Source: Geosiphon pyriformis uo1
Lineage: Eukaryota; Fungi; Glomeromycota
Length of the DNA stretch: 64,000 nt
Assembly: GCA_016748015.1 (NCBI GenBank)
Contig: JAAOMT010000003.1
Coordinates: 624,373 to 688,372 of the forward strand
Reading direction: 5' to 3'
The notes under the pieces: generated by a model
The model's input: only the letters and a program-made list of their open reading frames with translations
Told to the model about the DNA's origin: nothing
Database searches by the model: none
Translations under genes and position numbers: made by a program
Part shown: piece after piece, positions 11,731 to 53,300 of the stretch
How the letters are laid out: the number at the start of each line of letters is the position of its first letter
Numbering within the stretch: the first letter of the stretch is position 1

Positions 11731-13626
11731 GGTAAAGAGCTTTTTAAGTCAAAAATTAATTAAGCTTTTTTATATATTGTTTTCTTTGCGAGTTTTAAGC
11801 TAAACTAGATATTAAAAATCAAAATCATTAAAACTAATATTTTTTTGTGTAATTAAAGTTTTTTATTTAAAATTTGTAAAGGTTTTAATATTAAAATAAT
11901 AATATATATTGTAACTTTAAAAATTCAAATTTTTAATTATATTTTGAACAATTTCAAAATTTTTTAACTGTTACTAATCATTATAAGTAACTTAAAATTT
12001 TTTAATTTTAAAATTAATTTTTAAAAAGTAATAATAAACAAATTTAAAATATATTTTATAATTTATTTATATTTAAAACAAATAATATTTAATATTTTTA
12101 ATAATTAAAAACCAATAATTAAGCAAATAATTTTTTTAAAAAAAACTTAAAACAAATTTTGATTATTATTAAATATTTTTTAAAGTTTTTACAAACAGCT
12201 TAAAAATATAATTAATAACATATATATGCTAATAAATAAATAATTTTTTTTTGCTAATTAAATTTTGTTTACAGTTATATTAAATTTACTTAAAAACTAT
12301 TTTTTGTAATTTTGTATTTGGTTTAACAAATTATATTTTATATATTTAAATAACAATTTAATAATTTTTTTTATTGTTTTAATAAAGTGTAATTTTTTTA
12401 TTAACGATATTATTTTTTTTAAAATTATTATAAATATAAAACATGTATTTTTAATATGTAATTAGTTATTTAAATTTAAGTTAATAAATACAAAATTGTT
12501 ATAAATTATAAAAAAAAAATTTTGTTATTTTTATAATTATAGCCAAAGCAAAAAATAATAAATTATATTTTCTCTATTATTTGAAACAACTAATAGTATT
12601 TTTATTAGTAAAATATTAACAGTTATTAAATTACTTATTAATATTTTATAAAAACATTTTTTTTAAATAAATAGTTATAAACTAACTTTTTATTAGTTTT
12701 ATTTAAAAGATTTAAAAAACTATTTTTGTTATTATTACTTTTTTTATTTTAACTCATATGATTAAAATAGCCAAAAAAACAATTACTTCTTTTTTTTAAG
12801 TAACTAACTTTTTTAAGATTCTTAAAAATGTTTTTTTTTATGTTTTTTAGCATAATATTAATATTTTGAAACTTTGTTTTTTTTGTAAAAAATAAAATAT
12901 TAATTTTATTTAATTTTTTTAATAATTATACTAATTTTATAGTAATTACATTAATTAAAGTGTTGTTATAATTTAAAAATTTAATAAAAGTTATAAAATA
13001 ATATAAATTATTTAATTATAATATAACATAATAATAATCTTAAAAAAGTAATAATTAATATAAGCAATAATTATCAAATAATATTAACAGTAAATATTAT
13101 CTTGTAAGAGTAATAAATACTATATTAAAATATTAAAAATAAAGTATATATTATAAATTATAAATATATATATATACAATAATTTTAATATTAAAAAAAA
13201 AAATTTTATTTTTAAAAATTTTTGGTTTTTATTATCTATTTTTTACAGTAATTAATCTTTAACAATTACTTTAAAATAAATATTCAAAATAAATTTTTAA
13301 TAAAAAAAAATAAGAAATAATAATTAATTATTACAATAAAAATATTAGAAAAACTTATTTGTACTATTTATTAAATAAAACTGTTATTTATTAACTAAGT
13401 CTTTTAAAAAATAATTTTTAATTAAAATTATTTATATTATTAATAAAAATACTAAAAAATTATTAATATTTTGTATTTTTAAATTAAAAAAACACTTTAG
13501 ATAATTACAAAAATAGCTTTAAAAAAAAATCTTAACAATAGTAAATGAATTTCAAATTAGTCTTTAAAAAAACACACTAATATACAATAACAATTAAAAT
13601 TTAAGAAAAAGTTTATATTATAATAT

Positions 13627-27172: not shown

Positions 27173-29060
27173 TGAGATAAAAAAAGAGCTAAAAAACCCA
27201 AACCAGAATACAGATGATTCAATCTTTCCAAAACTGAACCGATTAAGACCTCAAAAGCTACTATTTTTGATTCTAATTTGCCCACCTTGAAGGTCAGAAC
27301 CTTAGAAAAACTTGAGCTAGAGTCATAGACCACATTAACACTAGCTGAAAAAGAAGGAGCAGATGTTAATGTCACATTATCCAAAGCCATATCCACATCT
27401 AAATGTGACACCAAAGAGGTAGGAATGGCTGAAGGAGGAACACTAAAAAGAAGTACTGTTGGTACCAGTTCTATGCAACTTAACTTTTCCAATATGTCGA
27501 ACACCTAATCTATTAAGAGTTTCAAGAAGCATTCTAAAGAGACCAGATGAACACTTAAGGAAGAGTTGTTAGCTGAAGCAAGAGAGGAATTACTGTTTGA
27601 ATTTAAGACACCAGAAAAAGAGAGTCCAGAACTGGAACCAGAACTGAAATGAGAACCACCAGAAAGACCAGCAAATAAGACCACCTGGGTCCAAGTTTTG
27701 CTGTCAAAGAAAGCAGATCAAAAAATCAGAACACTTTTTTTCTTATACAATCTTGCCAACTGAAAACAATACATATCAGAAGCATTTTTTTTAAAGTTTT
27801 TTTCAGAAAGAACAGATACCAGAGTGTCAGAAACATTACATTCTAAAGCTAAGTGTCTAAACTTCCCACACCTTTCACACTGAACCAAGTCTAATCTAGC
27901 CCAAGAAAGTTTCACATTACCAAAAATTGGCTTAATGCAAAATGCAGATTCAAGCTCATTTTCAGATTCAAAACCAACAACGGCACAGTAAGTCCAGTTG
28001 TCAATCTCTAGAGAACAATTGATCACACAAGTTTTCTCACCAGCCTCTTCCAAAAGAATACCAAGATCATGCGCAAATGTTCTCACTGGCAAAGTAAACA
28101 AAAATGCCCTAAAGCAATCTTTAGACATCTAAGTATCCTAATCTCTCATGGCTATAGCCATATATACTGAATTCTTTCCAATAAGGAATAACCATCTTGA
28201 TATCAGTTGCTTTGCCTGCTCCAATTTGGTGAATTTTATCACAGCCTTCTATTACATTCCAATTAGTTGAATCTTAATTGACTTGATATTACCAAACTCA
28301 GAAACTGTGGTAACAATCATCTCCTTAGGCATATCTATGGGAATTTCTTTAATTACTACGGCCCAATCTGAGCAAATTCCTTGTTTTTTGAGATTGCTGT
28401 TTATGTTGATCTCCTTTTCCCTGGCCAATAAAGTGGTTTTATTCATGTTCTCTTTAAAAGTAAAAGTAGATTGGATGATCCCTTCAAATTTTGAGAGGGT
28501 AGTAGCCTTCTCAAAACCATTGATTGTTGAAAAAATCTTTCTAACAAGCTGAGTTTTTGCTGTGACAGATTTGCCTTCTACTGCCAAAAAATTAATATCC
28601 AAAGCAAATAATTTTTTGACTGACACTTCCACTGGAGTCTTAATAATCTTCAGGTTTATTCACTTTTTGTCTAGAAAGATGAGCAAGTGAAGAGGGAGCA
28701 CAATTTCATCATCATCTATATTATAATTGAGGAAACCAAGAGGGGATCCTAGAACAACACCAGTGTTCACTCTTTTTGCCTTGGAAGTATTAGCTGCTGA
28801 GCCCAAAAAAGACCTACTGTCTATACCTTTTATGACAATATTGTCTTCTCCACTACTGAATTCACTTTCCAAATTCAAATACATACTACCAGGACCAGGT
28901 TTGCACAAAAAAACGTCTTTCTTATCACCTAAGTGCTCAATATTGCCTAAAACCACTCTCTTTTTCTGAGAAAAAAAGCCACCAGCAGGACCATAAAAAG
29001 CACTTTTGGGCATCATTTTTTTAGACATATCACCACCCAAAGCAGTCTTTAAATCTACAA
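27169..29060 (-). pseudogene. LINE ORF1, type B (MSKKMMPKSAFYGPAGGFFSQKK...)
   Basis: Fragments 28660-29060, 28252-28632, 27718-28128 (CERCGKFRHLALEC knuckle) and 27169-27504. Confidence 0.9.
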
Positions 29061-29939
29061 TGTTATGGGATAATTTTCTTGTTATATTTAATTGCTGATA
29101 TCCCATTTTAATTGCAATCAGTCTTTCATGAGTTTCTCAATTCTATTTGTGTGATAATGTCACTGTTATACTGAAGGCTTTCTTTTTTACTGTTGCGATA
29201 TAAGTTATTCTTCAATTCTTGATTGTTGTGTGTGTTTATGTACTCCTTTTCAGAGGCTGAACTGAAATCTACCCACTGTTTGGGGTCTTCTCTGAGGCTA
29301 TCCTTGCAATTGCCTGATGTGTTTCTCTAATCTAGAAACACAGAATGTTAATGGTCTTTAGTGCTTTTTTAATTCTTACAATAAAGCTTTTATCAATTAG
29401 TAACAACGTGAATAATCTTGATCAAGGATTATTCTTCCAAGGGATTCAGTTGATGAATAATAGTTTCATTCAATAAATAATACAAGTAAGTTTTTTAATA
29501 CTTTGGGTTGTGATAGTTCAGTTTTAAATATTCTTTTTTATTTCTTTTTGATTTTAAAGGTTTCTTGGGATATTTAATTTGAAAGTATGATTTAAAATGG
29601 AGTTTGTTGGATAAAATTGGATCTATTGCTTGATAAGTTATGATTTTTATTACTTGATTGATTATTTCCCAATATTAAAACTACTGTATATATACATGTT
29701 TGTAGTTCTACGAGAAAACACATTGTAATACTTTCTTTTTTTGATATTTCAACCTGGTGTTTGCTGCTATCACCAGTTGGTGTTGGCTGCTATTGTGAAC
29801 TGGTGCTTGCCACTATCGTGAGATGGTGTTTGCTACTATGTTAATCATTACCTTTCTAAGATTATTACTGTACTATATTATGATTGAATAGTTTGTATTA
29901 TTTTTATGATTCTTTTTGCTAAATTCTTAAACTATAACA
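29061..29939 (-). repeat. 3' LTR of Gypsy A
   Basis: TGTTA...TAACA; about 97.4% identical to 37891-38769 (23 mismatches by manual count, no indels). Confidence 0.97.
29752..29843. repeat. 23-bp tandem repeat (x4) in the U3 part of the LTR (also at 38582-38673; x6 in the solo LTR at 44258-44395)
   Basis: Units acctggtgtttgctgctatcacc / agttggtgttggctgctattgtg / aactggtgcttgccactatcgtg / agatggtgtttgctactatgtta. Confidence 0.85.
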
Positions 29940-29943
29940 TTAG

Positions 29944-29954
29944 CCCCTCTTTTT
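29944..29954 (-). other. Polypurine tract of Gypsy A
   Basis: Minus strand reads AAAAAGAGGGG just before the 3' LTR. Confidence 0.9.
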
Positions 29955-30621
29955 AAGATTGAACTCTGTCAAAATCGAAGTTAATTTCTTCATTAAATTC
30001 TAAGTTACTATAGTGGTTCAATACTGTGTTATTAATTTGTTGTTGTAATTCTTGAAATTGTGAGTTGGTAAGTCGTCCAATACTGTTGGTTGTTATTATG
30101 TTCATGGTTGAGTCCAACAATAATTTGTGACAGTTTTCAAATGCTTTGAAAATTCTGTAAACTGTTTTTGAATGGAATGTAGTGTTGGTTTTTCCAATGA
30201 AAGGTTCTAATAGTTGGATAGTTGTTTTGTCAAACACTTTAGTTGAGTCTTTTGAGTATAATGTTTGTATGTTCAAGTGCTTTTCTAGTTGATAATAACA
30301 GTAATTAATTGGAAATTTCGTTTTTAAGTTGCTAAATGTGTCTGGTGTTAATTCACTTATTTTTATTTCTTCTATTATTAATGTATTGCCCAATGCTATC
30401 TCTAATTTTTCAATAACTTTGCTAATAAATTTGTTGTTATATTTGGCAATATTATATGGTTCGAAATTATGTTCTTTTCTTGTTTTTGGATTTTTTATTG
30501 TTCTTTTTATGTATGTTATTTTGGAGCTATTAACTGTGATTTCTAGATCAGATTTTAATTGTTGTAAGCTTTCAACTAATTGTTGAGTTATATTGTTGAT
30601 GTTTTCTGGAATAAGTATCAT
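29953..30621 (-). CDS. Gypsy A ORF3, uncharacterised 222-aa protein in the env position
   Basis: Intact ORF with aaaacaATG start, ending at the PPT. A decayed homolog occupies the same position in Gypsy C. Confidence 0.8.
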   Translation of the reverse strand: MILIPENINNITQQLVESLQQLKSDLEITVNSSKITYIKRTIKNPKTRKEHNFEPYNIAKYNNKFISKVIEKLEIALGNTLIIEEIKISELTPDTFSNLKTKFPINYCYYQLEKHLNIQTLYSKDSTKVFDKTTIQLLEPFIGKTNTTFHSKTVYRIFKAFENCHKLLLDSTMNIITTNSIGRLTNSQFQELQQQINNTVLNHYSNLEFNEEINFDFDRVQS

Positions 30622-30705
30622 TGTTTTAATTTTGACTGCTATTTTGGAATCTTTTGCATGCGTTTTTATGGTTGTTAAATCATTTTTACTGTAATCTAAG
30701 ATTAA

Positions 30706-32075
30706 TTATCTTTTCAAATAATGTTCAATTAAAACTATTGGTTCTAAATCTTGTGGAATTTGTTCTGGTAGAATTAAAGATAATTGTGTTCCAATTCTGG
30801 GTGTTTTTGTTGTTATTACTGGTTTACTGTAATAGAATTTCAGCCGGTTACCATGTGCTGCTTTTTTTAATATTTTATCATCTAGTCTTAGCTTGTATGC
30901 TCTATTTCCAAGTATTTCATGAATATAAAATGGTCCATCCCACTTGTGATCAAATTTTCCACTCCACTGTTTTTCCATTTTTGTACGATGCAACAATACT
31001 TTATCTCCAATTTTGTAGCTAATTATATTATCTGGTAACTGGTTATCATGTCTCACTTTTTGTTGTTCTTAATATTTTGTGCTGCTTTTCTTCTTTTGTT
31101 TTCTAAAGTTCCCATTAATCCGTATGTTCTTCTAAGTAGTGTTTCCTAGAATGTTGCTTCCATGATAGTGTCACTTGGATAAGTTGGGATAGTAAGTTCA
31201 ACTGGTAATGTGGCTTTTCTTCCATAAACTAGTTCAAATGGTGTGAATTGTGTAATATCTTGTTTTACTGTTCTATATGCTAGTAGTACTGCTGGTATGA
31301 ACAAATCCTATTCTTTTTCATGTTCGTTACTAATTTTTGCCAGTGATTTGCATAATATGTGATTAAATTTTTCAACTAATCCATTTGTTTGAGAGTGGTA
31401 TGATGATGACCGTGGTCGCTTGATTCCAAATTTTTGGTTAAGTTCTTTTAAGGTGCTGTTTATGAAGTGTGTGCCTTGATCTGATAGCAATTTTTGTGGA
31501 CATCCATGTCAGCAAATTAAGTCTTTATGTACAAATTGAGCTATGGAAATAGCATCAGCTGTTTTAATAGCTCTAGCTTCTGGCCATTTGGTGAGATAGT
31601 TCATGGCTACTGCAATATAATGGTTGTTTCTTGTTGTTATTGGTAAGGGTCCAACTAAATCAATTCTGATTCTGTCAAATGGCTGTCCAACTTTTATTGG
31701 TCTTAATAATTCTGTTGTTTTTGCTCCTTCTCTTCATTGGCATGGGTCACAATTTTTTATGTATTGGATTATGTCTGAACTTATTTTTGGCCAATAGTAA
31801 TGGCTAGTTGCATGTTGGATGGTTGCTGTTTTTCCAAAGTGGCCTGAATAAATATCTGAGTGCATGTTAAATAAGATAGTTTCTTTTTCATCCATGGTTA
31901 TAATTCTTAATGGATTATCTGGATTTTGTCGATTCTAGTAATAAAGTATGTGATTTTGGATGAAATAGTGTTTTGCTAATTTTTGGAGCTTAATTAGCTC
32001 TTTTACTGACATTTCTTTGTCTATTTGTAGTGTTTCCAAGTATTGGCTGAGGTTTTTGTAAAGGTGGTTGTTTAT
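30706..32075 (-). pseudogene. Gypsy A integrase, separate ORF (HHCC, DDE core, GPF motif, no chromodomain)
   Basis: MHSDIYSGHFG..CDPCQ; RIRIDLVGPLP; LLSDQGTHF; QTNGLVEKFN; WDGPFYI. A few stops and one frameshift near 31070. Confidence 0.93.
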
Positions 32076-32104
32076 TGTTGTTGTGATGGATGGGTTGGTG
32101 ATTT

Positions 32105-33532
32105 TTATGTGTGTCTCATTCTTGACAAACAGTCCACATTAGCATTTTTGGTACCTTCTTTGTATTTGATAATATAATTATATGGTGCTAACGTTTGTGA
32201 CTATCTGGCGTATTTTCCTTTTAGTGCTTTCTTGTTATTTAACCAGACCAGACCTCTATAATCTGTTGTAATCTCAAAGGGTTGGTACCATAAATATGTG
32301 TCAAAGTGAATACAACTCCAGACTACTGCTAAGCATTCAAGTTCATGTGCTGCGTAGTTTTGTTCTGCCGTACTGAAACTTCTGCTGGCATAAGCGATTA
32401 CACGTTCTCTTCCATTATCATCTTTTTGTGACAGAATGGCTCCAAGTCCAGTTCCAGAGGCATCTGTGGCCAAAATGAATTTCTTGTTGAAATTCGGATA
32501 GATCATTATTGGTGATTCAATGAGCTTTTGTCTAAGGTACTCAAAAGCTTTTTGTTGTGCTTCAGTCCATTCAAACTTCACATTTTTAGATAGTAGGTAA
32601 TTAAGGGGTTTGGCGATGTTTGAAAAGTTTTCTACAAAGCGGTGGTAGTAAGATGCGAGTCCTAAAAAGCTTCTAACTTCTGAAACGTTTCGAGGTACTG
32701 GAAAATTTTTCACTTTGTCTATTTTTGATAGATCTGGTTTTATTCCATCTTTTCCAACTACGTGTCCTAAAAATGCTAGCTCATTTTTCCCAAAAAAACA
32801 TTTTTCTAGATTTAGTTTAAGTCCAGTGTGTCTTAATCTTTCAAAAACTTGTTGTAAATATTGGAGATGATCCATGAATTTTGACGAGAAAACATTTGTA
32901 TCATCCAAGTAGACAACAATGGATTGCCACAAAATTCTGAAGTAAATTACGTTCATTAGTCTTTGGAATGTCGCGGGAGCGTTTGTTAATCCAAATGGCA
33001 TTACATTGAACTCATAATTGCCATTTTGTGTTGTAAATGCTGTTTTATGCCTGTCCTTTGGGTCCATTTCCACTTGCCAGTACTCACTGGTCAAGTCCAG
33101 TGTAGAAAACCATTTTGCTCCTTCAAAAACGTCAAAGATTTTGTCAATTAACAATATTGGGTATGAGTCTTTGGTTGTTTTGCTGTTTAGTTTGTGATAG
33201 TCAATGCAAAATCTAATTTTTCTATTCTTTTTCCTTACTAAAACAACTGGTGAGAACCATGGGCTTATTGATGGTTGTATTATTCCTTTTTCCAACATGC
33301 TTTGGAATTTTTCTCTGATAAAATTATGCTCCATTAGTGGAACACAGTAAGCGCATTGTTTTTCAGGTCTGGCATCTCCAGTGGAGATTTGGTGTTGAAC
33401 CAAGTTGGTTCTTCCAAATTCACCATTTCTTGAAAATATATCAGAGTATTTTAAAATTAATGCTTTTAATTGTCGCTGTTGGTCAGGATTCATTGTTTCA
33501 ATGTTTAATTTGGCCAATTCTTCTGGCGTAAA
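32105..33532 (-). pseudogene. Gypsy A reverse transcriptase and RNase H
   Basis: SPVVLV, RFCIDY, VMPFGLTNAPATFQR, VYLDDT, LATDASGTGLGAIL, ELECLAVVW. One TGG>TAG stop at 32201; the frame ends at SRMRHT* (32105). Confidence 0.96.
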
Positions 33533-36500
33533 TTAATAGCATTCTAATAATTGTTGCCAATTTATTGAAGTGAGTTCACAGTAGAGGGCAATTTCTGAGA
33601 AATTTAGAATTTCTTGTGGTGTTGACGCATTTTCTAGCTCCGTTCCAAGGTATCCAATGATGGTATCTTCCAGAATGTAGACGGGTTCTTCTGTGGTGTT
33701 TGCGATAGGAATTTTTATCCATTGAGCTTTATCAGCTGGAATAAAAAGGTTAGTAAGTCCTATGAGAAACTGTTGGCAAGTTTCTGGGTAGGGCTCAAAT
33801 ATTAGGTCTTTTTCTTTAATTGTTCTTTTTATTCTTATTTCTGATTTTCCATATGGTAGGAGTGTGATGGACCGCTCATTTTTAATTACTTCGCCTTTTT
33901 CCTCTATTGTTTCAGTGAAATTCACTTCAATTCTTTTTTCTGTCGATCCGAAACCAAAAGTTCCTCTCGTTGTTTGTGACAATTCCTCACGATTTTCTAC
34001 TGGCACGAATTTCCCAATTTTTACCAATGGTAGGAAAATTGCTTGTGCAATCTTTTCCTTAGATTCAATGGTATAAGGCTTTTCTGAATTGTTCTGTAGC
34101 AAAACCATCAAATTTCTAGTGTATTTGGAGTCAATTACTCCTCCTTGAATGCTTATTTCTTTTTTCACGAGACTTGATCGCAATGCTATTTGAACTATTA
34201 TTCCTGGTGGAATTTTAACTGCTATTTTTAGGTCGATTTTGATGATGCTCCTGGGTGGTAATGTTGTGGATTGGTCTTCCGGATAATGTAGATCGAATCC
34301 AGCGTCGGTTGGATGGGCTCTTTTGAGTATTATTTCTAAGTGCCTGTTGTCGAAGTATCGGATGTCGGTCATCTGTTCTAAGTTGGTATAGGCTACAAAT
34401 TTTTCTGACTCGAGACCGTCAGGTGAGTCTTGTTGATTTATTGATTGATTTTGAGACTGCTGATTCTTAATTTCCATTTTTCTTTCTAAGTCCCTTTCGT
34501 CTTGACACTTTTCACAGCATTGATTTTGGATGAGACAGTTTTTGCAGAGGTAAGTGTTGATTTGGGCGAAGTATTGTTCTTGCTTTTGTCGAATGAGGCA
34601 TAGTTGTTGATAGTAGTCCTGGAATTTGTCCACTGGGTCGAACATGTTGTAACTGGCAACTTCGTCAGCTACTTCGGCTGACTCTTTCCAATGTTGTATT
34701 TCTTCGGCGGTTCTTCCTCTTACTTTGGCTTGTGTGGTGTTGTACAGCTCATTCTTGTCGTGTGGGTAGTGCTGTAGTCTTTTTAACGCTCTGTTGAATG
34801 CTGCTTCGAATGGCGTTCCTCCTCTTACCCAGTCACAGATGAGGATTGTGTATTGGCAAGTTGCGTCACACGTTCCTCCTCTGTCTGGTATGTCATTCCA
34901 GTTGCACCCTCTTGGTAACGGTTCTCCACAAGCGAGGCATGGTTCCTTGTTCCATTTTCTATGTCTTTTTGGGTAACCGTATTTTTCTTTGTTACAACGG
35001 TTACAATAGTAGTGGGTGGGATTTCTTGGGTCTTTGTCCAGTGCACTGCACGCAGTCATAGACGAGAGTTTCTTCTTGCAAACCAAGCATTTTAGCTTTG
35101 GTCTGCATCGCTGGTGGTTTTTTTGTGAACTTATCTGGTTCCATTTGGATCTTTCTTCGCTGGTCCACATTGGTATGGCTGGTAGTCCTGTTTTTTGGTC
35201 ATCAGCCCAAGAGAGCTGATAGGTTTTGATGGCTGGTAGTGCTGAATTTTCCTCAAATTCGAAGGTAGGTCTTTGGTTGGCGCTGGGTTTTTGGAAGTGG
35301 CCACAGGTGGCTGGAATTTTGGCCTGGTGGCCATTATAATTGATTAGAAGCTCTTGGGTGGTCCAGTTTAGGGTGGCATTGGCTTTTGTTAGCCAGTTAT
35401 TCCCTACTAATGCTTGATATTGTGTAGTGTCCATTACTAATACTTTTGTAGATATTACTATGCTGTTAATTTTGAAAGAGAATGAGTCAATTTCGCCATG
35501 AGGCAGCTTTGTACTTCCATCAGCTATTATGATTTGGGACGTCGCAGCACGATCAACTTTGAAACCCAGTTGGTTTACTAATTGAAGCGTTATGATGCTT
35601 CCAGCGGATTTGCTGTCTAAGATAAGTTTGATTGGGGTATTGTTTACAGTGGCTTCCATATACATAGCAGTAATTGGGCATTTTTCGTCCAATGCTGCTC
35701 CACTGAACATAGTCTTGTTTTTCTCTAATTTAAAAGGAAAAATAGCTGCGAGGCTGCTATCTTCGGTGGCAACTGCTGGTAGTATTGTCTGGCTCAATTT
35801 GGAGAAATTCTTGGTTCTGTTTATGTTTCTACTATCATTGTTTCCGATAATCAGGTTTTCCAGTATATTAAGGTAAGTTTGTTGATAATTTTGGTAGTTT
35901 GGATTGATTTGCTGATTGGTTCCAGCGCAGTTTGGATTCCTCTGAACCAATGCGTTCTGGTTCCACATGAGCTGATTTCGGGCCTCAGGACGCCAATTCG
36001 GGTTGGCTATCATAAGCTGTTGCTGATAAGCTCCTTGATTTTGATATGTGGTGGGATATTGGTGTGGTATTGGCATGTACTGGTTTCTGGGCATTTGAGG
36101 TGGTGCATAGTAATTATTTTTGCATGCTTCCTGCATCATTTGCATTCGACATTGACTAATCAAATGTCCTACACATTTGCAAAAATGGCAGGCACGCATT
36201 TCTGTTCTGAATTCCTGATGCAACGAGTGATTATTTCGACTGTTGCTGACTTCCTGGCTGCGTCTTTGGGGTGGTTGGTATGTATTTTTTTTCAGATCCA
36301 GGATGAGGTAACTTTCTATTTTTTTAGAGAGTTCTTCTCCTAATCGCATTACTCTTTTCTTTAATGTTTCTGTCTTATTTTCCTCCATTACCATGTTAAC
36401 CATTTGACTATAGTTAGCTTCTTTCTCAGCCAATTCAAAGGCTCTGGCGAGTGTAATGGCTTCTGGTAAAGAATTAGGGTGGGCAGAGCATACTCTTCCT

Positions 36501-37807
36501 AAAATGCTGCTTTTTAATCTTCTAATAAACTGATTTAAAACCTGAGAATCAGTGTAGTATCTTTGTTCAATTGCTTCAATCTGATGGCAAATTCGATTGA
36601 ATCGAGCAAGGTATTGGGTGACAGTTTCACCAGTATTTTGCTTGATAGTATTGAATTTGTTCTGTAGTTGGATTATAGTGTTTGGATCGCTAAAATACTC
36701 TAGGAGTGCATTTTTAAATTCGGCGAAGCTCATGGGTTTTGTTTCTAGACTTTGATACCACGAGTTGTCTGTGCCTTTCAGGAAGAAAGGTAATGTTTGA
36801 ATTGCTCTTTGGTCATTCCAGTTATTTGCCTGGATGGCTTTTTGTGCTTCTCTGAGCCATGTGTGCACGTCTATTTCTTCTTCCTCTCTTGAGAAATCTG
36901 TTAGTCTTGCAATGTATGATGTGATCATTTCGTTGCCGTTTTCTGCTGGTGGGTTTATTGGTCTAAGAGGAGGTGAGATGATATTTTCTTGAGCATTTCT
37001 AAAGGTGGCTTCCCTTATATCCAGTTCTTTCTCTTGATCACGAGTTTCTTGGTTTCTGGACTGGCTGCTTGTTCCAGTGACTGGTTTTGTAATTGTTTTT
37101 TCACTGGTTTCTTTTTCAGATTCCGATTCAGACTCCTCTTCACAGTTTTCAAATCCTGTTCTAAATTTTGGCTGAAAAAGAGGGTTTTGGAATAGTGATG
37201 AATATCCTTCTGTAATTGGTATGTCTCCCCAGTTACGTTGTTTAATTTTATCAGTATAACTAGGAGTTTTTGGCATTTGTGGAGTTGATGTTGATGATAA
37301 TGCAGCTCCTAATGGAATTTGTATCTTATTTTCTGGTAAAAAATGGTATGATTTATCTTCTGGTGAATAAATACATTGTTTTTTTATTGATTGAGTGACA
37401 GTTTTCTTTGGCATTTGAGCTGGTGTTCCTAGTTTTTGCTGGTTACTTTCCTGATTAGTTTCTAAATTTTCTTTGGTTTTGTTGGCACGTTCCCTAGTGT
37501 TTCCTGTGGATATTGAAAAATTTTTGTTGGCATATTGCTCAATTTTTTGATGGATTTTGACAATAGTTGTGGCTATTACTGCTACTTCTTTTGTAGTGTA
37601 TTGTGATAATTCTCTATACAATCCAAGTTTTGTGTCGTGTGGTTTTTCTTCCTTTTCTATATGATAATTTATTCTGGCATTGATATAATAAGTGAGGGCA
37701 GATTCTGCTGAACAACACCCTTCTGGTAATCTAAGATCACTTTGATTTTGTGTGTAAATAGCACGGCAGAATTCAAGAACAGTAAGATTAGGGGTTTTTG
37801 TCACCAC
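33533..37807 (-). CDS. Gypsy A gag-protease-Cys-rich domain-dUTPase polyprotein (1424 aa open; in frame with RT across a single TAA)
   Basis: Capsid-like segment (DVHTWLREAQKAI..FFLKGTDNSWY); CHFCKCVGHLISQC knuckle (~36150-36195); protease LILDS(G>K)SAGSII (~35610); dUTPase motifs AGFDL, RSSL, GVIDSKY, IAQ, RGTFGFGST (33941-34330). Confidence 0.93.
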   Translation of the reverse strand: MVTKTPNLTVLEFCRAIYTQNQSDLRLPEGCCSAESALTYYINARINYHIEKEEKPHDTKLGLYRELSQYTTKEVAVIATTIVKIHQKIEQYANKNFSISTGNTRERANKTKENLETNQESNQQKLGTPAQMPKKTVTQSIKKQCIYSPEDKSYHFLPENKIQIPLGAALSSTSTPQMPKTPSYTDKIKQRNWGDIPITEGYSSLFQNPLFQPKFRTGFENCEEESESESEKETSEKTITKPVTGTSSQSRNQETRDQEKELDIREATFRNAQENIISPPLRPINPPAENGNEMITSYIARLTDFSREEEEIDVHTWLREAQKAIQANNWNDQRAIQTLPFFLKGTDNSWYQSLETKPMSFAEFKNALLEYFSDPNTIIQLQNKFNTIKQNTGETVTQYLARFNRICHQIEAIEQRYYTDSQVLNQFIRRLKSSILGRVCSAHPNSLPEAITLARAFELAEKEANYSQMVNMVMEENKTETLKKRVMRLGEELSKKIESYLILDLKKNTYQPPQRRSQEVSNSRNNHSLHQEFRTEMRACHFCKCVGHLISQCRMQMMQEACKNNYYAPPQMPRNQYMPIPHQYPTTYQNQGAYQQQLMIANPNWRPEARNQLMWNQNALVQRNPNCAGTNQQINPNYQNYQQTYLNILENLIIGNNDSRNINRTKNFSKLSQTILPAVATEDSSLAAIFPFKLEKNKTMFSGAALDEKCPITAMYMEATVNNTPIKLILDSKSAGSIITLQLVNQLGFKVDRAATSQIIIADGSTKLPHGEIDSFSFKINSIVISTKVLVMDTTQYQALVGNNWLTKANATLNWTTQELLINYNGHQAKIPATCGHFQKPSANQRPTFEFEENSALPAIKTYQLSWADDQKTGLPAIPMWTSEERSKWNQISSQKNHQRCRPKLKCLVCKKKLSSMTACSALDKDPRNPTHYYCNRCNKEKYGYPKRHRKWNKEPCLACGEPLPRGCNWNDIPDRGGTCDATCQYTILICDWVRGGTPFEAAFNRALKRLQHYPHDKNELYNTTQAKVRGRTAEEIQHWKESAEVADEVASYNMFDPVDKFQDYYQQLCLIRQKQEQYFAQINTYLCKNCLIQNQCCEKCQDERDLERKMEIKNQQSQNQSINQQDSPDGLESEKFVAYTNLEQMTDIRYFDNRHLEIILKRAHPTDAGFDLHYPEDQSTTLPPRSIIKIDLKIAVKIPPGIIVQIALRSSLVKKEISIQGGVIDSKYTRNLMVLLQNNSEKPYTIESKEKIAQAIFLPLVKIGKFVPVENREELSQTTRGTFGFGSTEKRIEVNFTETIEEKGEVIKNERSITLLPYGKSEIRIKRTIKEKDLIFEPYPETCQQFLIGLTNLFIPADKAQWIKIPIANTTEEPVYILEDTIIGYLGTELENASTPQEILNFSEIALYCELTSINWQQLLECY

Positions 37808-37870
37808 TTTTGTCTCTTCTTTTTTAGCAATGAATTATTGCTAATTATTATTTCCTTTTTTGATTTTCTT

Positions 37871-37888
37871 TCCTCATAGGGTTCACCA
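37871..37888 (-). other. Primer-binding site of Gypsy A (TGGTGAACCCTATGAGGA), probably tRNA-Trp
   Basis: Starts with TGG 2 nt after the 5' LTR. TGGTGAACCC is complementary to tRNAs ending GGGUUCACCA, as in plant-type tRNA-Trp; the tRNA assignment is inference. Confidence 0.75.
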
Positions 37889-37890
37889 AA

Positions 37891-38769
37891 TATTACAAGA
37901 TGATTTTCTTGTTATATTTAATTGCTGATATCCCATTTTAATTGCAATCAGTCTTTCGTGAGTTTCTCAATTCTATTTGTGTGATAATATCACTGTTATA
38001 CTGAAGGCTTTCTTTTTTACTGTTGTAATATAAGTTATTCTTCAATTCTTGATTGTTGTGTGTGTTTATGTACTCCTTCTCAAAGGCTGAACTGAAATCT
38101 ACCCACTGTTTGGGGTCTTCTCTGAGGCTATTCTTGCAATTGCCTGATGTGTTTCTCTAATCTAGAAACACAGAATGTTAATGGTCTTTAGTGCTTTTTT
38201 AATTCTTACAATAAAGCTTTTATCAATTAGTAACAACGTGAATAATCTTGATCAAGGATTATTCTTCCAAGGGATTCAGTTGATGAATAATAGTTTCATT
38301 CAATAAATAATACAAGTAAGTTTTTTAATACTTTGGGTTGTGATAGTTCAGTTTTAAATATTCTTTTTTATTTCTTTTTGATTTTAAAGGTTTCTTGGGA
38401 TATTTAATTTGAAAGTATGATTTAAAGTGGAGTTTGTTGGATAAAATTGGATTTATTGCTTGATAAGTTATGATTTTTATTATTTGATTGATTATTTCCC
38501 AATATTAAAACTACTGTATATATACATGTTTGTAGTTCTACGAGAAAACACATTGTAATACTTTCTTTTTTTGATATTTCAACCTGGTGTTTGCTGCTAT
38601 TACCAGTTGGTGTTGGCTGCTATTGTGAACTGGTGCTTGCCACTATCGCGAAATGGTGTTTACTACTATGTTAATCATTACCTTTCTAAGATTATTACTG
38701 TGCTATATTATGATTGAATAGTTTGTATTATTTTTATGATTCTTTTTGCTAAATTCTTAAATCGTAACA
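37891..38769 (-). repeat. 5' LTR of Gypsy A
   Basis: Direct repeat of 29061-29939; adjacent to the PBS. Confidence 0.97.
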
Positions 38770-39169
38770 ATGACAAAAGAGTTGTTATTTAAAAAAATGT
38801 CAAAAAACTAATAAAAAAAAATAAAAAAACTTCTTTTTCAGAAAATGCACTTTTTGAGAATTTTTGGAGATAAGAGAGAAAAAAGTTTGTTAATTTTAGA
38901 TAAATTAATATTAAATCAAATTAAAAATTAATTATCAAAAAAATTTTAGTTAATTTTTTTAAATTAACAGTAACATTAACATTTACCAAATTTAATAAAA
39001 TAAAAACAATAAAGCTATAATTAATTGGTTTTTATCAAAAAACACTAGTTAAATTTAAGAACATTAAAATTATTAATTTGATTGTTTTTAAATAGTTAAT
39101 TTTGTTAAATAAAAACTTTGTACAAGTAACCAAAACAGTTATTAACAAATAAACATAGAACTTTAAAAA

Positions 39170-43300: not shown

Positions 43301-43553
43301 TTGTCAATAATATTGTGTTTTTTAAACTTTATAAATTAAAGCTATTTGTTTCTATGATTTTAAAAATATATAAATTAAATGATTAAAAAAGATTTAGAAT
43401 TTTTTTCTCCTTGAATAGTAAATGCTGTTTTAAAATAATTTTTAGAGTTTATTTTAACTTGTCAGTACCTGTTTTCTAAGTTTAAAGTTGAAAAAAACTT
43501 GGCTTTTTTCAGAGCATTTAGTATATTATTAATTCTTGATAGTTAATAGGCAT

Positions 43554-44479
43554 TTTTATAAGATGGTTTTCTTGGTATATTTAATTGTCAATATTCTGTT
43601 TTAATTGCAATCAGTCTTTTATAAGTTCTTTAATTCTATTTGTGTGATAATATTACTGTTATACTGAAAAGTTTTTTTTTAATGTTATAATGTAAGTTAT
43701 TTTTCAATTTCTTATTTTTGTATATGTTTATGTATTCTTTTCCAAAGGCTGAACTGAAATTTACTTACTGTTTGAAGTTTTCTTTGAACCTATCTTTGCA
43801 ATTGTCTTATGTGTTTTTCTAATTTAGAAATATTGAATATTAATAGTCTTTAGTGCTTTTTTTAATTTTCACAATAAAGCTTTTATCAATTAATAACAAT
43901 GTGAATAATTTTGATCAGAAATTATTCTTTCAAAGAATTCAGCTAATAAATGATAGTTTCATTCAATAAATAATACAAATAAGTTTCTTAATACTTTAGA
44001 TTGTAATCATTTAGTTTTCAATATTTTTTTTCATTTTTTTTTAATTAAAGATTTTTGTGGATATTTATTTTAAAAGTAAAGACTAGAAGGTAATTAAAAT
44101 GGAACTGTTGGCTGAATTGTTTGATAACTTGTTTTTATGATTTGTTTTATAATCTTGTTGAATAATAATATTTTTTTCAATATTAAAATTATTATATATA
44201 TATATGTTTATAGTTTTACAAGAAAACACATTATAATACTTTCTTTTTGGTATCTTAACCTGGTGTTTGCTGCTATTATCAGTTGGTGTTGGCCACTATT
44301 ACCAGTTAGTGTTGGCCATTATTACCAGTTGGTGTTAACTGCTATTATAAGCTAGTGCTTGCCATTATTGTGAGATAATGCTTGCTATTATTATTTTTTT
44401 AGAATTATTACTATGCTATATTATAATTGAATAATTTATATTATTTTATAATTTTTTGCTAAATTTTTAAATCATAATA
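43554..44479 (-). mobile_element. Solo LTR of the Gypsy A family inserted into the RT of Gypsy B
   Basis: Collinear with 29061-29939. Perfect 4-bp TSD GCAT at 43550-43553 and 44480-44483. Removing it rejoins the RT segment at ..IIKDAY... Confidence 0.92.
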
Positions 44480-47400
44480 GCATCTTTAATTATAACATTA
44501 TTCAGTTGTTAATAGTCTACACAAAATTTGAATTTGTTTTTTTTTTTTACAAAGACCACTAATGAAATCCAAAAACTTTTTAATAGTTGGATAAGACTAT
44601 TATTGAGCATTTATTAAACTTTTTCTTTAATAAATTGGTGGCTAGTAAATAGAACTTGGTAGATTTGTTAATATTTTGGTAAAGCATCCCCTGTATGGAT
44701 CTGGTACTATATAGTATTAGTTTTTTTAAGATTATTATTATTTTTGGCAAATATATTAGCATATTTAGCAATCAACTGTTTTAATTGTTTTTGTTATTAG
44801 AATTCTAAGAAACTTATATTGATTTAAAAAAGTTTTTCTTCTAAAATATGGTAGTTTTCAGTAGTAAGAGTGATGTTTGGATTTAAAAATAAGATATGTT
44901 TCACAATTTTAATGAAATTAAAAACAATCTAAGAGATTTTATCTTGGAAAATGTTGCTATATATGATTCTAATTTCTAATTTATTTAATAAAATAATGGG
45001 GTAATTGTTGAAATTGTAAAATATAACTTGAATTTTTTTATTTCTTGTAGAATATAAATATTTAAAATTGTAATTTCATCCTTTAAACAAATTTGTTTAT
45101 TTAATTCAAAGATTTGTTGGGTAGTAGTAGGCTTTAGACAAGTGTAAATTTTATAATGTTTTTTAAAAAGTAAAATGGTAATTGATTAAAACAGTTGAAA
45201 AATCCGATAAAATTTATTTTGTGCATTAAGAACTATATTTACTAGAACTGTAAATTGTCCAGTTAAACCAAAATTTTGGGTTTTTTTTCACTTTTTTCTA
45301 ATTGTTTTCTGTTGTTGACTGATTGTAAATCCAAAATTTTGATTAAAAGTAGGTAGATTGCTTAAACAATTTTTTTAGCATGCTTAATTTTGAATAATTT
45401 ATCAGTTTTATTTTGTATCAAGATTGTAATGTTTTTGGTGTATCCTGTATCTATGATTCCTCTTTTGATGCTAATTTTTTTGCTTGTCAATAATAATTGG
45501 AATGCAATTTAAATCATTGCTTTTGGTGAAATTTCAAAAGCAATTTTTAAGTTGATTTTTGTCAAAAATTTTGGTTAGGAGACCAAAGTGTTTTTTTTTG
45601 AGTATTATAGATCATATTCAGCATTTATTTTGTGGGCTTTTTTTGGTCTTATTTTTTGTCTATTGTTGTTGAAATATTGGAGTTGTATAATAGGCTGATT
45701 TTCTATAAAATAGATTGAAATTGTTGTAATTTTTTCTTTTGGTTTAGGTTTTTCAAATTCAATTTTATATTTATTATTTTTATTGAACAAGAAAATACTA
45801 ATTACATAGTATTTTAAACACTATTAGTTATTACAAAACATAGTATATTCTTTGCATAATTGAATGTTCATTTGCTTTAATTGTTGAATTTGAGCTTTTT
45901 TGGTTAGATAGGCATAACTTGTAATCTGATAGTATGTTTTTACTTCATTTTTGTAATCAAATTCAGCTATTTATTGTATATTTAATGTATTCTGTTTTTT
46001 TCATCTGACATATATCTTCTTGGGTTTCTCTATTGATTAAAACTATGGCCAATTCATAGATTATTTTAGTATTATGTGGATAATAATAGAGTTTATTAAG
46101 GATGTTATTATATGTTGCATTGAAAAAAGTTCTTTTTTTTACTTTTTTGCAATTAAAAATGCATATTAACAGGTTGATTACAGACTCTTTTTTTTATTGC
46201 AACATCAATCTAGTTGTATTTTTTTAATAACATTTTTTTATATATAAAACAAAGAATATTATTTTATTTTCCACTTTGTTTAGAATATCTGAATCGTTTT
46301 TTATAGCATGTCTTACAAAATAATAGATACATGTTTTATATTTTTCTTTTGGAGATATGTATACTCTCATAGACAAAAGCTTTTTGTTGCAATTTTTGCA
46401 TGTTAAGTAGAATATAAGATGGTTGTTTTTATGGTTTTGGTATAAAATATTAAACAACATTCCATTTTCTGGTTTTTTTAAAAATTTTTTGCTTTGTTTT
46501 CTTAGCTCAATTGGATGTTAATCCAAAAGCCATGTATGTTTTAATAATTGGCATTTTTTTTTTAAATTTAAACACCAAGACTTTTTCAGATTGTTTGTTA
46601 AAAGTACCACAGATAATAGATACTTGGATATATTGTCCTTGATATAAAATTTTTAATTCTTGTGTTTTTCAGTTTAAGTTTGCATTGGCTTTAAGAAATC
46701 AATTATTTCTGATAAAAGCTTAGTATTAGAGTATATCTATGACAAAAACTTTAATTGAAATAGTAATTCTATTAATAGTAAAAAGAAAGTTGTTAATTTT
46801 TCTTACTGAGGTCTTTTTTATACTATCTGTAATAACAATAATTGTTTTGGCAGATCTGTCAACAGTTTGTTGAAACTGTTGTATTAATTGATAGATAATA
46901 ATACTACCAGTAGATTCATTGTTTAAAATTAATTGAATTGGTTTTTTTTCAACTTTAGCTTCAGTATATATTGCTGTGATTGCTTTTTGTTTATTAACTA
47001 CTATATTACTAAGTAAAAATAGTAATTTGTTGTCCTTAAATTAAATAAAAATATATCTGAAAAATTAGCATTTTGTGTAATTTGGGTCGATAGAATAGTA
47101 TTATTGAAAAGATTTGATTTTGATGCTGTAGCTTTATCTTCAGAAAGTACAGTTTATTAAAAATTCGACTTTTTTAATATTGTAAGATAATTGAGTTAAG
47201 TATGGTAATATACAGGTTTTTGCTAAACTGGGTTTTGGAGAACTAATTAATTGTTGAGATTGAATTAATTATTGTTAGAAAACCAATTTTGTAATATAAA
47301 TTGGTTTTGTTGGCTTGATTGTTAAACAGATATTTGATATTATTAAACAAGTGATTATTGATATTGTTTTTGAATAGATTGTAGAGCAAATTGATAGTAA

Positions 47401-50360: not shown

Positions 50361-53300
50361 GTATTAACAACCATCAACTTAACAATACCAAACATCTGTC
50401 CAAAGATTAATTTAACAAAACTAATTTACACCACAAAATCAGTTTTTTAACAATAATTGATTCAATTCTAACAACTATTTAGTTTTTCGAAATTTGGCTT
50501 AATAAAAGCCCATATATTATCATACTTAACTCAATTATCTCACAATATTAGAAGAATCATATTTTTAACAAACTGCTCTTTTTGAAGATAAAGTTATAGT
50601 ATCAAGATCAAATTCTTTCAACAATACCATCTTATCAATCCAAATTGCCCAAAATACTAATTTCTTAGATATTTTCTTATTTAAATTTAAAGCCAATGAA
50701 TTATAGTAATATAACAATCAATAAGCAAAAAGCAATTACAGTAATATATATTAAAGCAAAAGTTAAAGAAAAACCAATTTGACTAATTCTAAATAGTGAA
50801 TTTACTAGTAGTATCATCATCTACTAACTAATACAACAGCTTTAATAAACTATTAACAAATCTGCCCAAACAATTATTGTTACAGCCAATAATATGAAAA
50901 AAACTCCAATAAGAAAAATTGACAACTTTTTCTTTATTATTAATGAAATTACCATCTAATTAAAGTTCTTGTCATAAATGCACCTCAATACCAAGTTCTT
51001 ATTAGAAATAATTAATTTCTTAAAGCCAATACAAACCTAGATTAGAAAACACAAGAATTAAAAATTTTATACTAAAGACAATATACATAAATATCTGCTA
51101 TATGTAGTATATTTAATAAACAATTTAAAAAAACCCCAGTATTTGAATTTAAAGAAAAAAAAAATGCCAATTATTGAAACATATATGGCTTTTGAATTAA
51201 CATCTAATTGGACTGAGGAAACAGAACAAAAAATTTTTAAAGAAACCAGAGAATAAAATGTTGCTCAATATTTTATACCAGAATTATAAAAACAACTATC
51301 TTATATCCTATTTAAATACAAAAACTGCAACAAAAAACTTTTATCAATAAGAGCATACATATTTTTAAAAGAGAAATATAAAACATGCATCTGTTATTTT
51401 TGCAAGACATGCCATAGGAAACAATTCAGATACTCCAAATAAAATAGAAAATAAGACAATATTTTTTGTTTTATATGTGAAGAAATATTACCAAAAGAAT
51501 ACAACTGAATTGATGTTACAATAAAAAAAAAAATCTGTAATCAAATCTGTCAATATGCATTTTTAATTACAAAGAAAGTAAAAAGAAAAACTCTTTTCAA
51601 TGCAACATATAACAGCATTCTTAACAAACTTTACTATTATCCACATAATACTGAAATAATTTACAAACTGACTATAGTTTTAATCAATAAAAAAACCCAA
51701 TAAGATGTATGCCAAATGAAAAAAACAGAGTACATTGAGTCTACAATAGAATTAGCTGAATTAGATTATAAAAATAAAGTAGAAACATACTACTAGATTA
51801 CAAATTATGCCTACTTAATTAAAGAAGCTTAAATTCAACAATTAGAACAAATAAATATTCAATTATATAAAGAATATACCATGTTTTGTAATAACCAATA
51901 ATGTTTAGAATGCTATGCAATTAGATTTTTTTGTTTAGTAAAAATAATGAATACAAAATCAAATTTGAAAAACCTGAACCAAAAAAAAAATTACAACAAC
52001 CCTAATTTACCTTATTAAAAATCAGTCTGTTATAAAACTCAAATATTTTAACAACAATGAATAAGAAATAAAACCAGAAAAAGCTCATAAAATTGATGCT
52101 AAATATAATTTACAATATCCAAAAAAAAACACTTTGGTTTTTTAACCAAAACCTTTGACAAAAATCAATCAAAAATTGCTTTTAAAATCTTATCAAAAAC
52201 AATGATTCAAATTGCTTCCCAATTATTGTTGGCAAGCAAAAAAATTAATGTTAGAGGAAAAGTCATAGATGCAAAATACACTAGAGACATCACAATCTTG
52301 TTACAAAATAAAACTGACAAATCATTCAAAATCAAACATATTGAAAAAATTGTTTAAGCAATCTATTTACCCTTAATCAACATTTTAGATTTACAATTGG
52401 TTAGCAACAAAAAACAATTAAAAAAAAGTGAAAGAAGAACCCAAAGTTTTGGTTTAACTGGACAATTCACAATTCCAGTAAATATAATTCTTAATACACA
52501 AAACAAATCTTACCAGATTCTTTGATTTCCCCAACCAATTACTATTTTATCTTTTGGAAAACATTACAAAATTTACACTTGTCCAAAGCCTATTACCACT
52601 TAACAAATCTTTGAATCCAATAAACAAATCTGTTTAAAGCATAAAATCTTAATTCTAAAAAAAATGAAAAAATTTGGAATTATCTTTTATAATTCTAACA
52701 ATTATCTTAATATTTTATTAAATAAAGTAGAAATTGGAATTATATATAACAACATTTTTCAAAATAAAATCTCTTAGATTGTCTTTAATTTCATTAAAAT
52801 TGTGAAATATATCTTATTTCCAAATTTAAACATTATTTTCACTACTAAAAACTACCATATTTTAGAAAAAAAACTCTTTTAAATCAACATGAATTTTTTA
52901 GAACCTCAACAATAAAGACAACTAAAACAGTTAATTGCTAAATATATTAATATATTTGTGAAAGACAATAACAATCTGGAAAAAACTGATATTGTTTAAC
53001 ATTAAATCTATACAGAAGATGCTCTACTAAAATGATAATAAACTTACTAAGTTCTATTTGCCAGCCACCAATTCATCAGAGAAAAATACAGTGAATACTT
53101 AACAATAAACTTATACAACTATCAAAAAGCTCTTGGGCTTCATCAGTAGTCCTTATTAAAAAGAAAAATTACAAAATCAAATTTTGTGTAGACTATTGAC
53201 AACTAAATAATATTATAATTGAAAATATCTATACACTACCAAAAATTGACAACATGCTAAATGCTTTAAGAAAAGCCAAGTTTTTTTCAACTTTAACTTA

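What the first reader, a model, noticed from the sequence alone, without database searches (positions are those of the whole stretch)
34500..35105. Uncharacterised Cys-rich (multi-zinc-finger-like) domain between protease and dUTPase
Seen: CLVC..YYCNRC..PCLAC..C..TCDATC..(helical LQHYPHD segment)..LCKNC..CCEKC, about 200 aa. The same spacing survives in B (TCKNCNKKL, 46224-46460) and C (~51310-51915: YFCKTC, FCFICEE, ICNQICQY, LYYYPHN, QCLEC). I do not recognise it as a standard Gypsy domain such as PHD, chromo or knuckle. Inference: conservation across two families implies a function, for example nucleic-acid or chromatin binding, or a counter-silencing module.
Basis: partly seen in the sequence, partly recalled or inferred. 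Interest (0 to 1): 0.78.

Follow-up and report, generated by a model that had tools for sequence, protein, structure and literature searches.

The report
Unnamed triple zinc-finger retrotransposon module
A large family of jumping genes matching those of the fungus Geosiphon carries, between its protease and its dUTPase enzyme, a conserved 200-residue module with 13 fixed cysteines that matches no catalogued protein family; it likely binds zinc and may hold the dUTPase on the element's own RNA/DNA while it is being copied.

Summary
Window 34505-35089 (minus strand) encodes a 195-aa cysteine-rich module inside the single gag-pol frame of a dead Ty3/Gypsy element, between protease and dUTPase. 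All 138 word-search homologues are Geosiphon pyriformis proteins. One intact, unnamed metagenome protein (P0159) has the same order and 45% identity in the module. Thirteen cysteines are the commonest residue in all six subfamily groups (13 of 18 Cys, against 36 of 192 other positions). Transversions between copies A and C pile up at third codon positions (33/37/71). The module was therefore under purifying selection. Pfam, NCBIfam, PHROGs, PDB sequence, Foldseek and VIA searches gave no significant match. AlphaFold predicts two treble-clef-like fingers and a helical bundle, followed by an acidic helix and a five-Cys motif. Function is untested. My best guess (0.4) is a tether that keeps the dUTPase at the reverse-transcription complex, like betaretroviral NC-dUTPase. 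The module's net acidity argues against this and for a protein adaptor. Side finding: two probable RNA runs hold the same multi-intron transcript, likely antisense, across the element. Verdict: a new variant of a known kind, of moderate interest.

The parts
34505..35089 (-). Cys-rich module, aa 916-1110 of gag-pol (copy A); a basic leader extends to about 35131
   Evidence: conservation
34994..35089 (-). Finger 1, C-x2-C-x24-C-x2-C; predicted treble-clef-like (knuckle, beta-hairpin, helix); basic
34856..34939 (-). Finger 2, C-x2-C-x19-C-x3-C (TRASH/FCS-like spacing, recalled pattern); runs into the helical bundle
34682..34864 (-). Predicted three-helix bundle (aa about 991-1051), includes the LQHYPHD loop
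   Evidence: pLDDT 71-93 in 10-residue blocks from model residue 81 to 140
34547..34681 (-). Acidic segment and long predicted helix (aa 1052-1096)
34505..34546 (-). Cluster 3: C-x2-C-x3-C-x4-C-x2-C in the family; copy A lacks the middle Cys
   Evidence: (table 4)
35387..35656 (-). Aspartic protease domain (aa 727-816)
   Evidence: Pfam PF13975 E 1.5e-7
33941..34330 (-). dUTPase domain (aa 1169-1298)
   Evidence: Pfam PF00692 E 7.8e-22
33533..37834 (-). Gag-pol ORF, first part: N-terminal extension, capsid (aa 309-471), one CX2CX4HX4C knuckle (aa 549-562), protease, module, dUTPase; ends in a premature stop where relatives read on into RT
32201..33532 (-). RT and RNase H in the same frame, ending in a stop
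29953..32200 (-). Broken integrase (HHCC, DDE and GPF motifs read by eye) and a 250-aa open frame at 29953-30705 with no Pfam match
37891..38769 (-). 5' LTR of element A
   Evidence: 97.8% identical to the 3' LTR; 19 differences, all transitions
29061..29939 (-). 3' LTR of element A, preceded by a polypurine tract
45806..46403 (-). Module in decayed, frameshifted copy B (second family)
51317..51916 (+). Module in decayed copy C (same family as B)

Best explanation
This is a conserved, uncatalogued accessory module of a Geosiphon-type Ty3/Gypsy gag-pol polyprotein that likely binds three zinc ions and most likely stays joined to the dUTPase, tethering it to the element's RNA/cDNA inside the particle. 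SHOWN: position between protease and dUTPase; 13 fixed Cys across six subfamily groups; purifying selection; co-inheritance with the protease; gag and pol in one frame; copy A is dead. PREDICTED: two tandem treble-clef-like fingers and a helical bundle. INFERRED, untested: zinc binding; release by the protease as a module-dUTPase fusion; nucleic-acid contact through the basic leader and finger 1; local removal of dUTP during reverse transcription, as proposed for betaretroviral NC-dUTPase. The acidic C-terminal half would act as a spacer or protein contact. That the module is real and functional is about 0.95; the confidence below is for the tether mechanism.
For: Order: among 258 module-bearing proteins, the protease precedes the module in 95 of 95 that have one and the dUTPase follows in 66 of 66. 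Conservation: 13 of 18 Cys positions against 36 of 192 others are identical in all six groups, Fisher p 5e-6. Against intact P0159, identity is 45% in the module, 63% in protease, 57% in dUTPase and 17-18% in the flanking linkers. A versus C transversions by codon position are 33/37/71 over 195 codons, p 9e-5. Protease and module trees of the same 20 rows give the same three main clades. The model of aa 908-1052 has pLDDT 74.8; its best Foldseek rows are small treble-clef fingers (RIM2, 38 columns, rmsd 1.5, prob 0.99, but E 0.2). In P0159 the leader plus finger 1 has pI 9.25 and the dUTPase pI 8.84. Betaretroviral dUTPases fused to NC have pI 8.2-9.0 against 4.2-6.1 for the others listed (PMC1802613, section 12 read). 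Precedent: an extra Zn knuckle follows the PR-RT dUTPase in rotifer Juno elements (PMC5408684, passages).
Against: The whole module is acidic (P0159: 28 K/R against 38 D/E, pI 4.9), and its last 60 residues have 1-3 basic against 14-17 acidic residues in every group. That is unlike a nucleocapsid. The element already has a Gag knuckle. The dUTPase pI rests on a net charge of +2 in a window I chose; it leaves out an acidic linker (1 K/R, 9 D/E) and has no control from module-less Gypsy dUTPases. The linker to the dUTPase is variable and could be cut. LIM- and RIM-type fingers usually bind proteins (own knowledge). The Cys pairing was not checked in coordinates: pairs 2 and 3 also fit GATA-like spacing, and finger 2 has pLDDT only 56-80. 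No sense transcript or protein was seen.
Confidence: 0.4

Rival explanations
1. The module is a protein-interaction adaptor (LIM/TRASH-like fingers plus an acidic helix) that organises the polyprotein or particle, or binds a host protein needed for assembly or nuclear entry, independently of the dUTPase.
For: Net acidic. The best structural neighbours are protein-binding fingers: LIM ISL1 E 0.094 and RIM2 E 0.2. Pfam LIM gave E 0.51 on one homologue. Conserved surface-type Trp and Pro residues.
Against: All these matches are non-significant and a shared small fold shows no function. No partner was identified.
Confidence: 0.3
2. The module is a counter-defence factor: it binds or blocks a host silencing, deamination or uracil-repair protein (Vpr-, Vif- or Ugi-like logic), or binds chromatin.
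For: The host decays these elements by C-to-T changes, yet LTR elements cover 41.2% of the G. pyriformis genome (PMC11952901, passage). The module is acidic and sits beside a uracil-avoidance enzyme. HIV-1 recruits UNG2 through Vpr or IN (PMC4531489, passages).
Against: No sequence or fold match to any such factor. The copies examined are decayed, so silencing was not escaped in the end. The position far from integrase argues against integration targeting.
Confidence: 0.15
3. The module is a captured host or viral gene fragment or a catalytic domain (for example a nuclease or ligase accessory, or an Fe-S carrier) whose relatives are too distant to detect.
For: 245 of the 395 representative hits were not displayed. 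Five TnpB/Cas12f/Cas12m/Fanzor-type rows sit among the VIA ties at Z 5.2-5.7. The top viral row is an HNH-type protein at E 0.013. The five-Cys cluster has one ligand more than a single Zn needs.
Against: No conserved His or acidic catalytic set apart from three Asp. Z under 8 for a helical bundle is background. No homologue outside these elements was found.
Confidence: 0.1
4. The segment is a neutral linker; its apparent conservation comes from recent common ancestry or from the overlapping antisense transcript.
For: Within a family, differences are almost all transitions. Most homologues come from one genome.
Against: Cys-specific conservation across groups that are only 40-67% alike, third-position bias in the sense frame, and identity about 2.5 times that of the flanking linkers.
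Confidence: 0.03

Closest known systems
dUTPase-carrying fungal Ty3/Gypsy elements (PosPlaTy3-5 of Postia placenta; PMC2864245, passages read)
   Same: dUTPase between protease and RT in a fungal Gypsy pol.
   Different: The passages read mention no Cys-rich module. Those elements were surveyed as chromoviruses; no chromodomain was seen here (by eye; Pfam blank on the terminal frame). The supplementary .DOC table of structures was not read.
Juno LTR retrotransposons of bdelloid rotifers (PMC5408684, passages read)
   Same: A zinc-binding motif next to a dUTPase that lies between PR and RT.
   Different: Juno has one knuckle AFTER the dUTPase. Here a 195-aa, 13-Cys, non-knuckle module lies BEFORE it.
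Betaretroviral NC-dUTPase fusion (M-PMV, MMTV; PMC1802613 abstract and section 12, PMC4531489 passages)
   Same: A zinc module N-terminal to a basic dUTPase; the working model for the proposed tether.
   Different: NC is the Gag CCHC knuckle protein joined by a frameshift upstream of the protease. This module is downstream of the protease, has no CCHC knuckle, is net acidic and shows no detectable homology.
Treble-clef zinc fingers (LIM halves, RIM/rabphilin, GATA, TRASH/FCS)
   Same: Cys spacing and the predicted knuckle-hairpin-helix topology of fingers 1 and 2.
   Different: No family profile or full-family spacing matches; the structural matches are about 40 residues and non-significant.

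Membership tests
Ty3/Gypsy LTR retrotransposon | Paired LTRs with TG...CA ends and a polypurine tract | tested here: met
   29061-29939 and 37891-38769, 97.8% identical; one end is decayed; PPT present; no matching target-site duplication seen
Ty3/Gypsy LTR retrotransposon | Domain order gag-PR-RT-RH-IN | tested here: met
   Pfam for gag, PR, RT, RH; integrase motifs read by eye downstream
Ty3/Gypsy LTR retrotransposon | RT closest to Ty3/Gypsy RTs | tested here: inconclusive
   Best PDB hits of the profile's RT part are 4ol8 and Ty3-G 7q5b, E about 1e-29; no RT tree was built
Chromovirus | Chromodomain after integrase | tested here: inconclusive
   None seen by eye in the broken frames; the terminal 250-aa frame has no Pfam hit; the broken region itself was not profile-scanned
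Betaretroviral NC-dUTPase | CCHC knuckle nucleocapsid fused to dUTPase | tested here: not met
   No CX2CX4HX4C in the module of four sequences; the Gag knuckle is 600 aa upstream
Betaretroviral NC-dUTPase | Basic dUTPase domain | tested here: inconclusive
   pI 8.84 in P0159 on a net charge of +2, boundary-dependent, no Gypsy control
Betaretroviral NC-dUTPase | Stable fusion that binds nucleic acid in the particle | not testable with these tools
   needs biochemistry
PHD / RING / FYVE / MYND fingers | Family Cys/His spacing and Pfam profile | tested here: not met
   Recalled spacing patterns absent in 4 of 4 sequences; no Pfam hit
LIM domain | C-x2-C-x16-23-H-x2-C-x2-C-x2-C-x16-21-C-x2-C/H/D and PF00412 above cut-off | tested here: not met
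   Pattern (recalled) absent; best PF00412 11.1 bits against a cut-off of 22.9, in 1 of 7 proteins
Treble-clef fold (half-LIM/RIM-like) for finger 1 | Knuckle, beta-hairpin, helix | tested here: inconclusive
   Predicted secondary structure fits; Foldseek prob up to 0.99 but E 0.2 or worse
TRASH / zf-FCS finger for finger 2 | C-x2-C-x19-24-C-x3-C spacing and profile match | tested here: inconclusive
   Spacing (recalled) present in 4 of 4; no Pfam hit; low pLDDT
GATA finger (Cys pairs 2 and 3) | C-x2-C-x17-20-C-x2-C and profile match | tested here: inconclusive
   Spacing present in 4 of 4; no Pfam GATA hit; the model's secondary structure suggests pairing 1+2 and 3+4 instead

The most novel reading that the evidence does not exclude
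The module is a retrotransposon-encoded counter-defence protein, a fungal analogue of Vpr, Vif or Ugi. With the adjacent dUTPase it would form an anti-uracil or anti-silencing cassette that binds and disables a host enzyme, and so helped LTR elements take over about 41% of the Geosiphon genome.
Probability: 0.1. Interest if true: 0.8.

Novelty: new variant of a known kind. Interest (0 to 1): 0.43.

Why it matters
It defines an uncatalogued, selected 200-aa domain present in hundreds of 'hypothetical proteins' of G. pyriformis (395 representative clusters at E <= 0.001; 19 of 20 looked up are from that genome). These can now be recognised as retrotransposon debris. If the tether model is right, zinc modules have been joined to dUTPase independently in betaretroviruses, rotifer Juno elements and fungal Gypsy elements. 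That would point to a general need to localise dUTPase at reverse transcription, and would bear on the role of dUTPase in LTR retrotransposons, which PMC2864245 calls unclear. The intact homologue P0159 gives a directly expressible test construct. The narrow known range and unknown function keep the interest moderate.

Tried and rejected
Profile libraries: Pfam on the module and homologues, NCBIfam and PHROGs gave nothing at a curated cut-off in the module. The best Pfam row was SF3A3, E 0.0042, in 1 of 18 members.

PDB by sequence: best E 0.29 and 0.16. One search was swamped by RT and dUTPase rows.

Folds: Foldseek PDB had 0 matches at E <= 0.001 for both models, as did BFVD. VIA best Z was 5.2 and 6.0, which is background; its rows barely tested finger 1. 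Cluster 3 was never folded alone and was modelled as helix. These blanks do not show that the fold is new.

DNA collections: IMG/VR gave 0 of 18 pattern matches confirmed; JGI metagenomes gave 0 of 96 and 0 of 158. These are single-pattern, weak tests.

Not available: the ESM Atlas gave no answer. No genome is held, so no genome-wide dN/dS was possible. The Geosiphon genome paper was not held.

Homotrimer prediction of the module: no verdict (score 0.00, alignment not used); no evidence either way.

Internal duplication of fingers 1 and 2: 13 of 48 identical, E 0.51, inconclusive.

Antisense ORF: window exons have stops in all three frames in 8 of 12 pieces, but the transcribed copy differs from the window, so this is not settled. 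No RNA holder is listed as such.

Literature: 10 searches. No paper holds both 'Geosiphon' and 'dUTPase', and no listing described this module. Subscription papers, Repbase/GyDB and supplements were not seen and could describe it.

Full report
Setting. The finding lies on the minus strand, in a 1433-aa open frame at 33533-37834. Pfam gives Ty3 capsid (aa 309-471), aspartic protease (727-816) and dUTPase (1169-1298); RT and RNase H follow in the same frame after a stop. A broken integrase follows (motifs read by eye). Two LTRs, 97.8% identical, bound the element. Relatives read through the stop into RT (P0022; P0159), so gag and pol form one frame and copy A is dead. CpG is strongly depleted over most of the window, and the 19 LTR differences are all transitions. 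All word-search homologues carry the name Geosiphon pyriformis: 25 of 25, 26 of 26 and 87 of 87, with up to 87% identity. I infer that the window comes from this fungus or a very close relative; no genome is held.

Observation. Every motif quoted is present at aa 916-1110. Cys density is 17 of 195 against 19 of 1238 elsewhere (p 8e-7), and 5 CxxC pairs are reached by 121 of 20000 shuffles. Copy C aligns at E 3e-22. Copy B spans 45806-46403 across frameshifts. B and C differ by 86 transitions and 5 transversions in 594 sites, so they are one decayed family; by eye it matches group F3 below.

Distribution. A profile of 18 sequences searched against 1.84 billion representatives found 395 proteins at E <= 0.001, 317 at 1e-10 and 117 at 1e-30; only the best 150 were shown. 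Of these, 121 were new ids. I looked up 20, chosen mainly for low identity to named proteins: 19 are G. pyriformis and one, P0159, is an unnamed ENA protein on a 19-kb contig. The other 101 new ids were not looked up and 245 weaker hits were not seen, so occurrence outside retroelements or outside this lineage is not excluded. P0159 is an uninterrupted PR-module-dUTPase-RT frame of 1064 aa; its organism is unknown. IMG/VR and JGI scans confirmed nothing.

Selection. I sorted 258 module-bearing proteins into six groups by BLAST to seeds of my choosing (F1 52, F2a 79, F2b 105, F2c 7, F3 14, F4 = P0159 alone). Rows with an envelope over 330 aa were left out of the column counts. Over 210 shared columns the groups' commonest residues agree at 40-67%. 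Thirteen Cys are commonest in all six groups: 13 of 18 F1 Cys positions against 36 of 192 others, p 5e-6. The groups are related and two are tiny, so the p-value is indicative only. The pattern is C-x2-C-x24-C-x2-C, C-x2-C-x19-C-x3-C and C-x2-C-x3-C-x4-C-x2-C; copy A lacks the middle Cys of the last cluster (table 4). Against P0159, identity is 63% (protease), 45% (module), 57% (dUTPase) and 17-18% (the two linkers). Between A and C, transversions fall 33/37/71 on codon positions 1/2/3 over 195 codons, p 9e-5; transversions avoid the deamination bias. The protease precedes the module in 95 of 95 and the dUTPase follows in 66 of 66 proteins that have them. Trees of 20 selected rows (of 32 eligible) give the same clades F1, F2 and F3+F4 for protease and module, with longer branches for the module. 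The module is thus an old, vertically inherited, selected part of this element clade.

Structure. No profile library or PDB sequence matches the module. AlphaFold2 gave pLDDT 65.1 for aa 902-1125 (23 rows) and 74.8 for aa 908-1052 (93 rows). The second model shows, twice, two beta-bridges, a hairpin and a helix, the second helix starting a three-helix bundle. Foldseek found nothing at E <= 0.001. The best rows are treble-clef fingers: RIM2 (38 columns, rmsd 1.5, prob 0.99, E 0.2), LIM and GATA. VIA best Z was 5.2 and 6.0. I could not inspect coordinates, so the pairing of Cys is inferred; pairs 2 and 3 also fit GATA spacing. Recalled RING, PHD, LIM, FYVE, MYND and knuckle spacings are absent in 4 of 4 sequences.

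Mechanism. Because gag and pol share a frame, the module would be made along with Gag and packaged in the particle (inference). It is always next to the dUTPase. In betaretroviruses a zinc-knuckle NC is fused to a dUTPase that has become basic, and the authors propose that this localises dUTPase at reverse transcription (PMC1802613, abstract and section 12; PMC4531489, passages). Rotifer Juno elements have a knuckle just after their PR-RT dUTPase (PMC5408684, passages). Fungal Gypsy elements with dUTPase between PR and RT are known, with the role called unclear (PMC2864245, passages; PMC6431247, passages). In P0159 the leader and finger 1 are basic (pI 9.25) and the dUTPase is basic (8.84), which fits a tether. 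Against it, the module overall is acidic (pI 4.9), its C-terminal part strongly so in all six groups, the pI test is weak and uncontrolled, and the element already has a Gag knuckle. I put the tether at 0.4, a protein adaptor at 0.3, counter-defence or chromatin binding at 0.15, a distant captured or catalytic domain at 0.1 and a neutral linker at 0.03. Two earlier AI notes of this scan report Cys/His modules between protease and dUTPase in Gypsy elements of other genomes. Sequence look-ups found no likeness to this module. They are unchecked leads and I did not test them.

Side finding. Run X1 laid 13206 contigs on 32200-37900; X2 and X3 (two studies) laid only 2 and 7. X2 and X3 share 13 listed joints over 29000-38800. 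The ten of these shown are absent from X1. Eight of the 13 read GT..AG on the + strand at one common shift, three more have GT and AG within two bases, one has GT only, and one fits the minus strand instead. The tool labels X2 'RNA? (probably DNA)' and X3 'DNA?', so their RNA nature and the strand are my inference from sparse cover and splice signals. The contigs come from a less decayed copy (differences mostly A>G and T>C). This looks like a multi-intron antisense RNA running from about 30015, next to the 3' LTR, across gag-PR-module-dUTPase into the LTR. One intron (34887-35008) removes part of fingers 1 and 2, so this RNA cannot encode the module. Multi-intron antisense RNAs are known for Drosophila TART (PMC1636488, abstract only).

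Novelty and verdict. The element is a Ty3/Gypsy LTR retrotransposon with dUTPase, a known kind. The module is uncatalogued in the libraries and the ten paper searches I ran; subscription literature, Repbase and supplements were not seen, and the Geosiphon genome paper was not held. LTR expansion in G. pyriformis (41.2% of the genome) is published (PMC11952901, passages), as is TE methylation in Rhizophagus (PMC8647823, passages). New variant of a known kind; real and selected; function untested; interest 0.43.

Noticed in passing
window 29485-37880, + strand (antisense to element A): Two probable RNA runs from two studies share contigs with 13 listed intron-like skips (68-173 nt, and one of 3525 nt), mostly GT..AG on the antisense strand; those shown are absent from the DNA-like run. 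This is likely a multi-intron antisense transcript of a family member, starting near 30015. It may deserve its own follow-up.
   Followed up: partly
window 29953-30705 (-): A 250-aa open frame after the integrase GPF motif, reaching the polypurine tract, with no Pfam or NCBIfam match; it takes the place where a chromodomain would be.
   Followed up: partly
window about 36910-37834 (-): About 300 aa N-terminal to the capsid, with a roughly 100-aa segment conserved in family F1 homologues and no significant Pfam or NCBIfam match.
   Followed up: partly
window about 33570-33940 (-): About 120 aa after the dUTPase, 31% identical to P0159; by eye it recalls a degenerate second dUTPase-like beta domain (own knowledge, not tested).
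   Followed up: no
P0159 (unnamed ENA protein, 19-kb contig): The only undecayed member seen: intact PR-module-dUTPase-RT with complete-looking dUTPase motifs; groups with F3 at 86-87% support.
   Followed up: partly
window 43550-44480: A third, more decayed LTR of A's family (about 76-79% identity) abutting the RT end of copy B.
   Followed up: no
window 29050-29061 and 38769-38775: No matching target-site duplication flanks element A, which may be a recombinant or have decayed flanks.
   Followed up: partly
window 10001-12000, 32001-36000 and 60001-64000: CpG observed/expected is 0.5-1.2 here against mostly under 0.25 elsewhere; 60-64 kb may hold unmethylated host sequence.
   Followed up: no
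window 24456-25328 (-) and 9075-9767 (+): Other retroelement remnants: RT (E 5e-5) and a zinc knuckle (E 3e-5); repeat families at 1529/18012/24986 and 21434/28474/59401.
   Followed up: no
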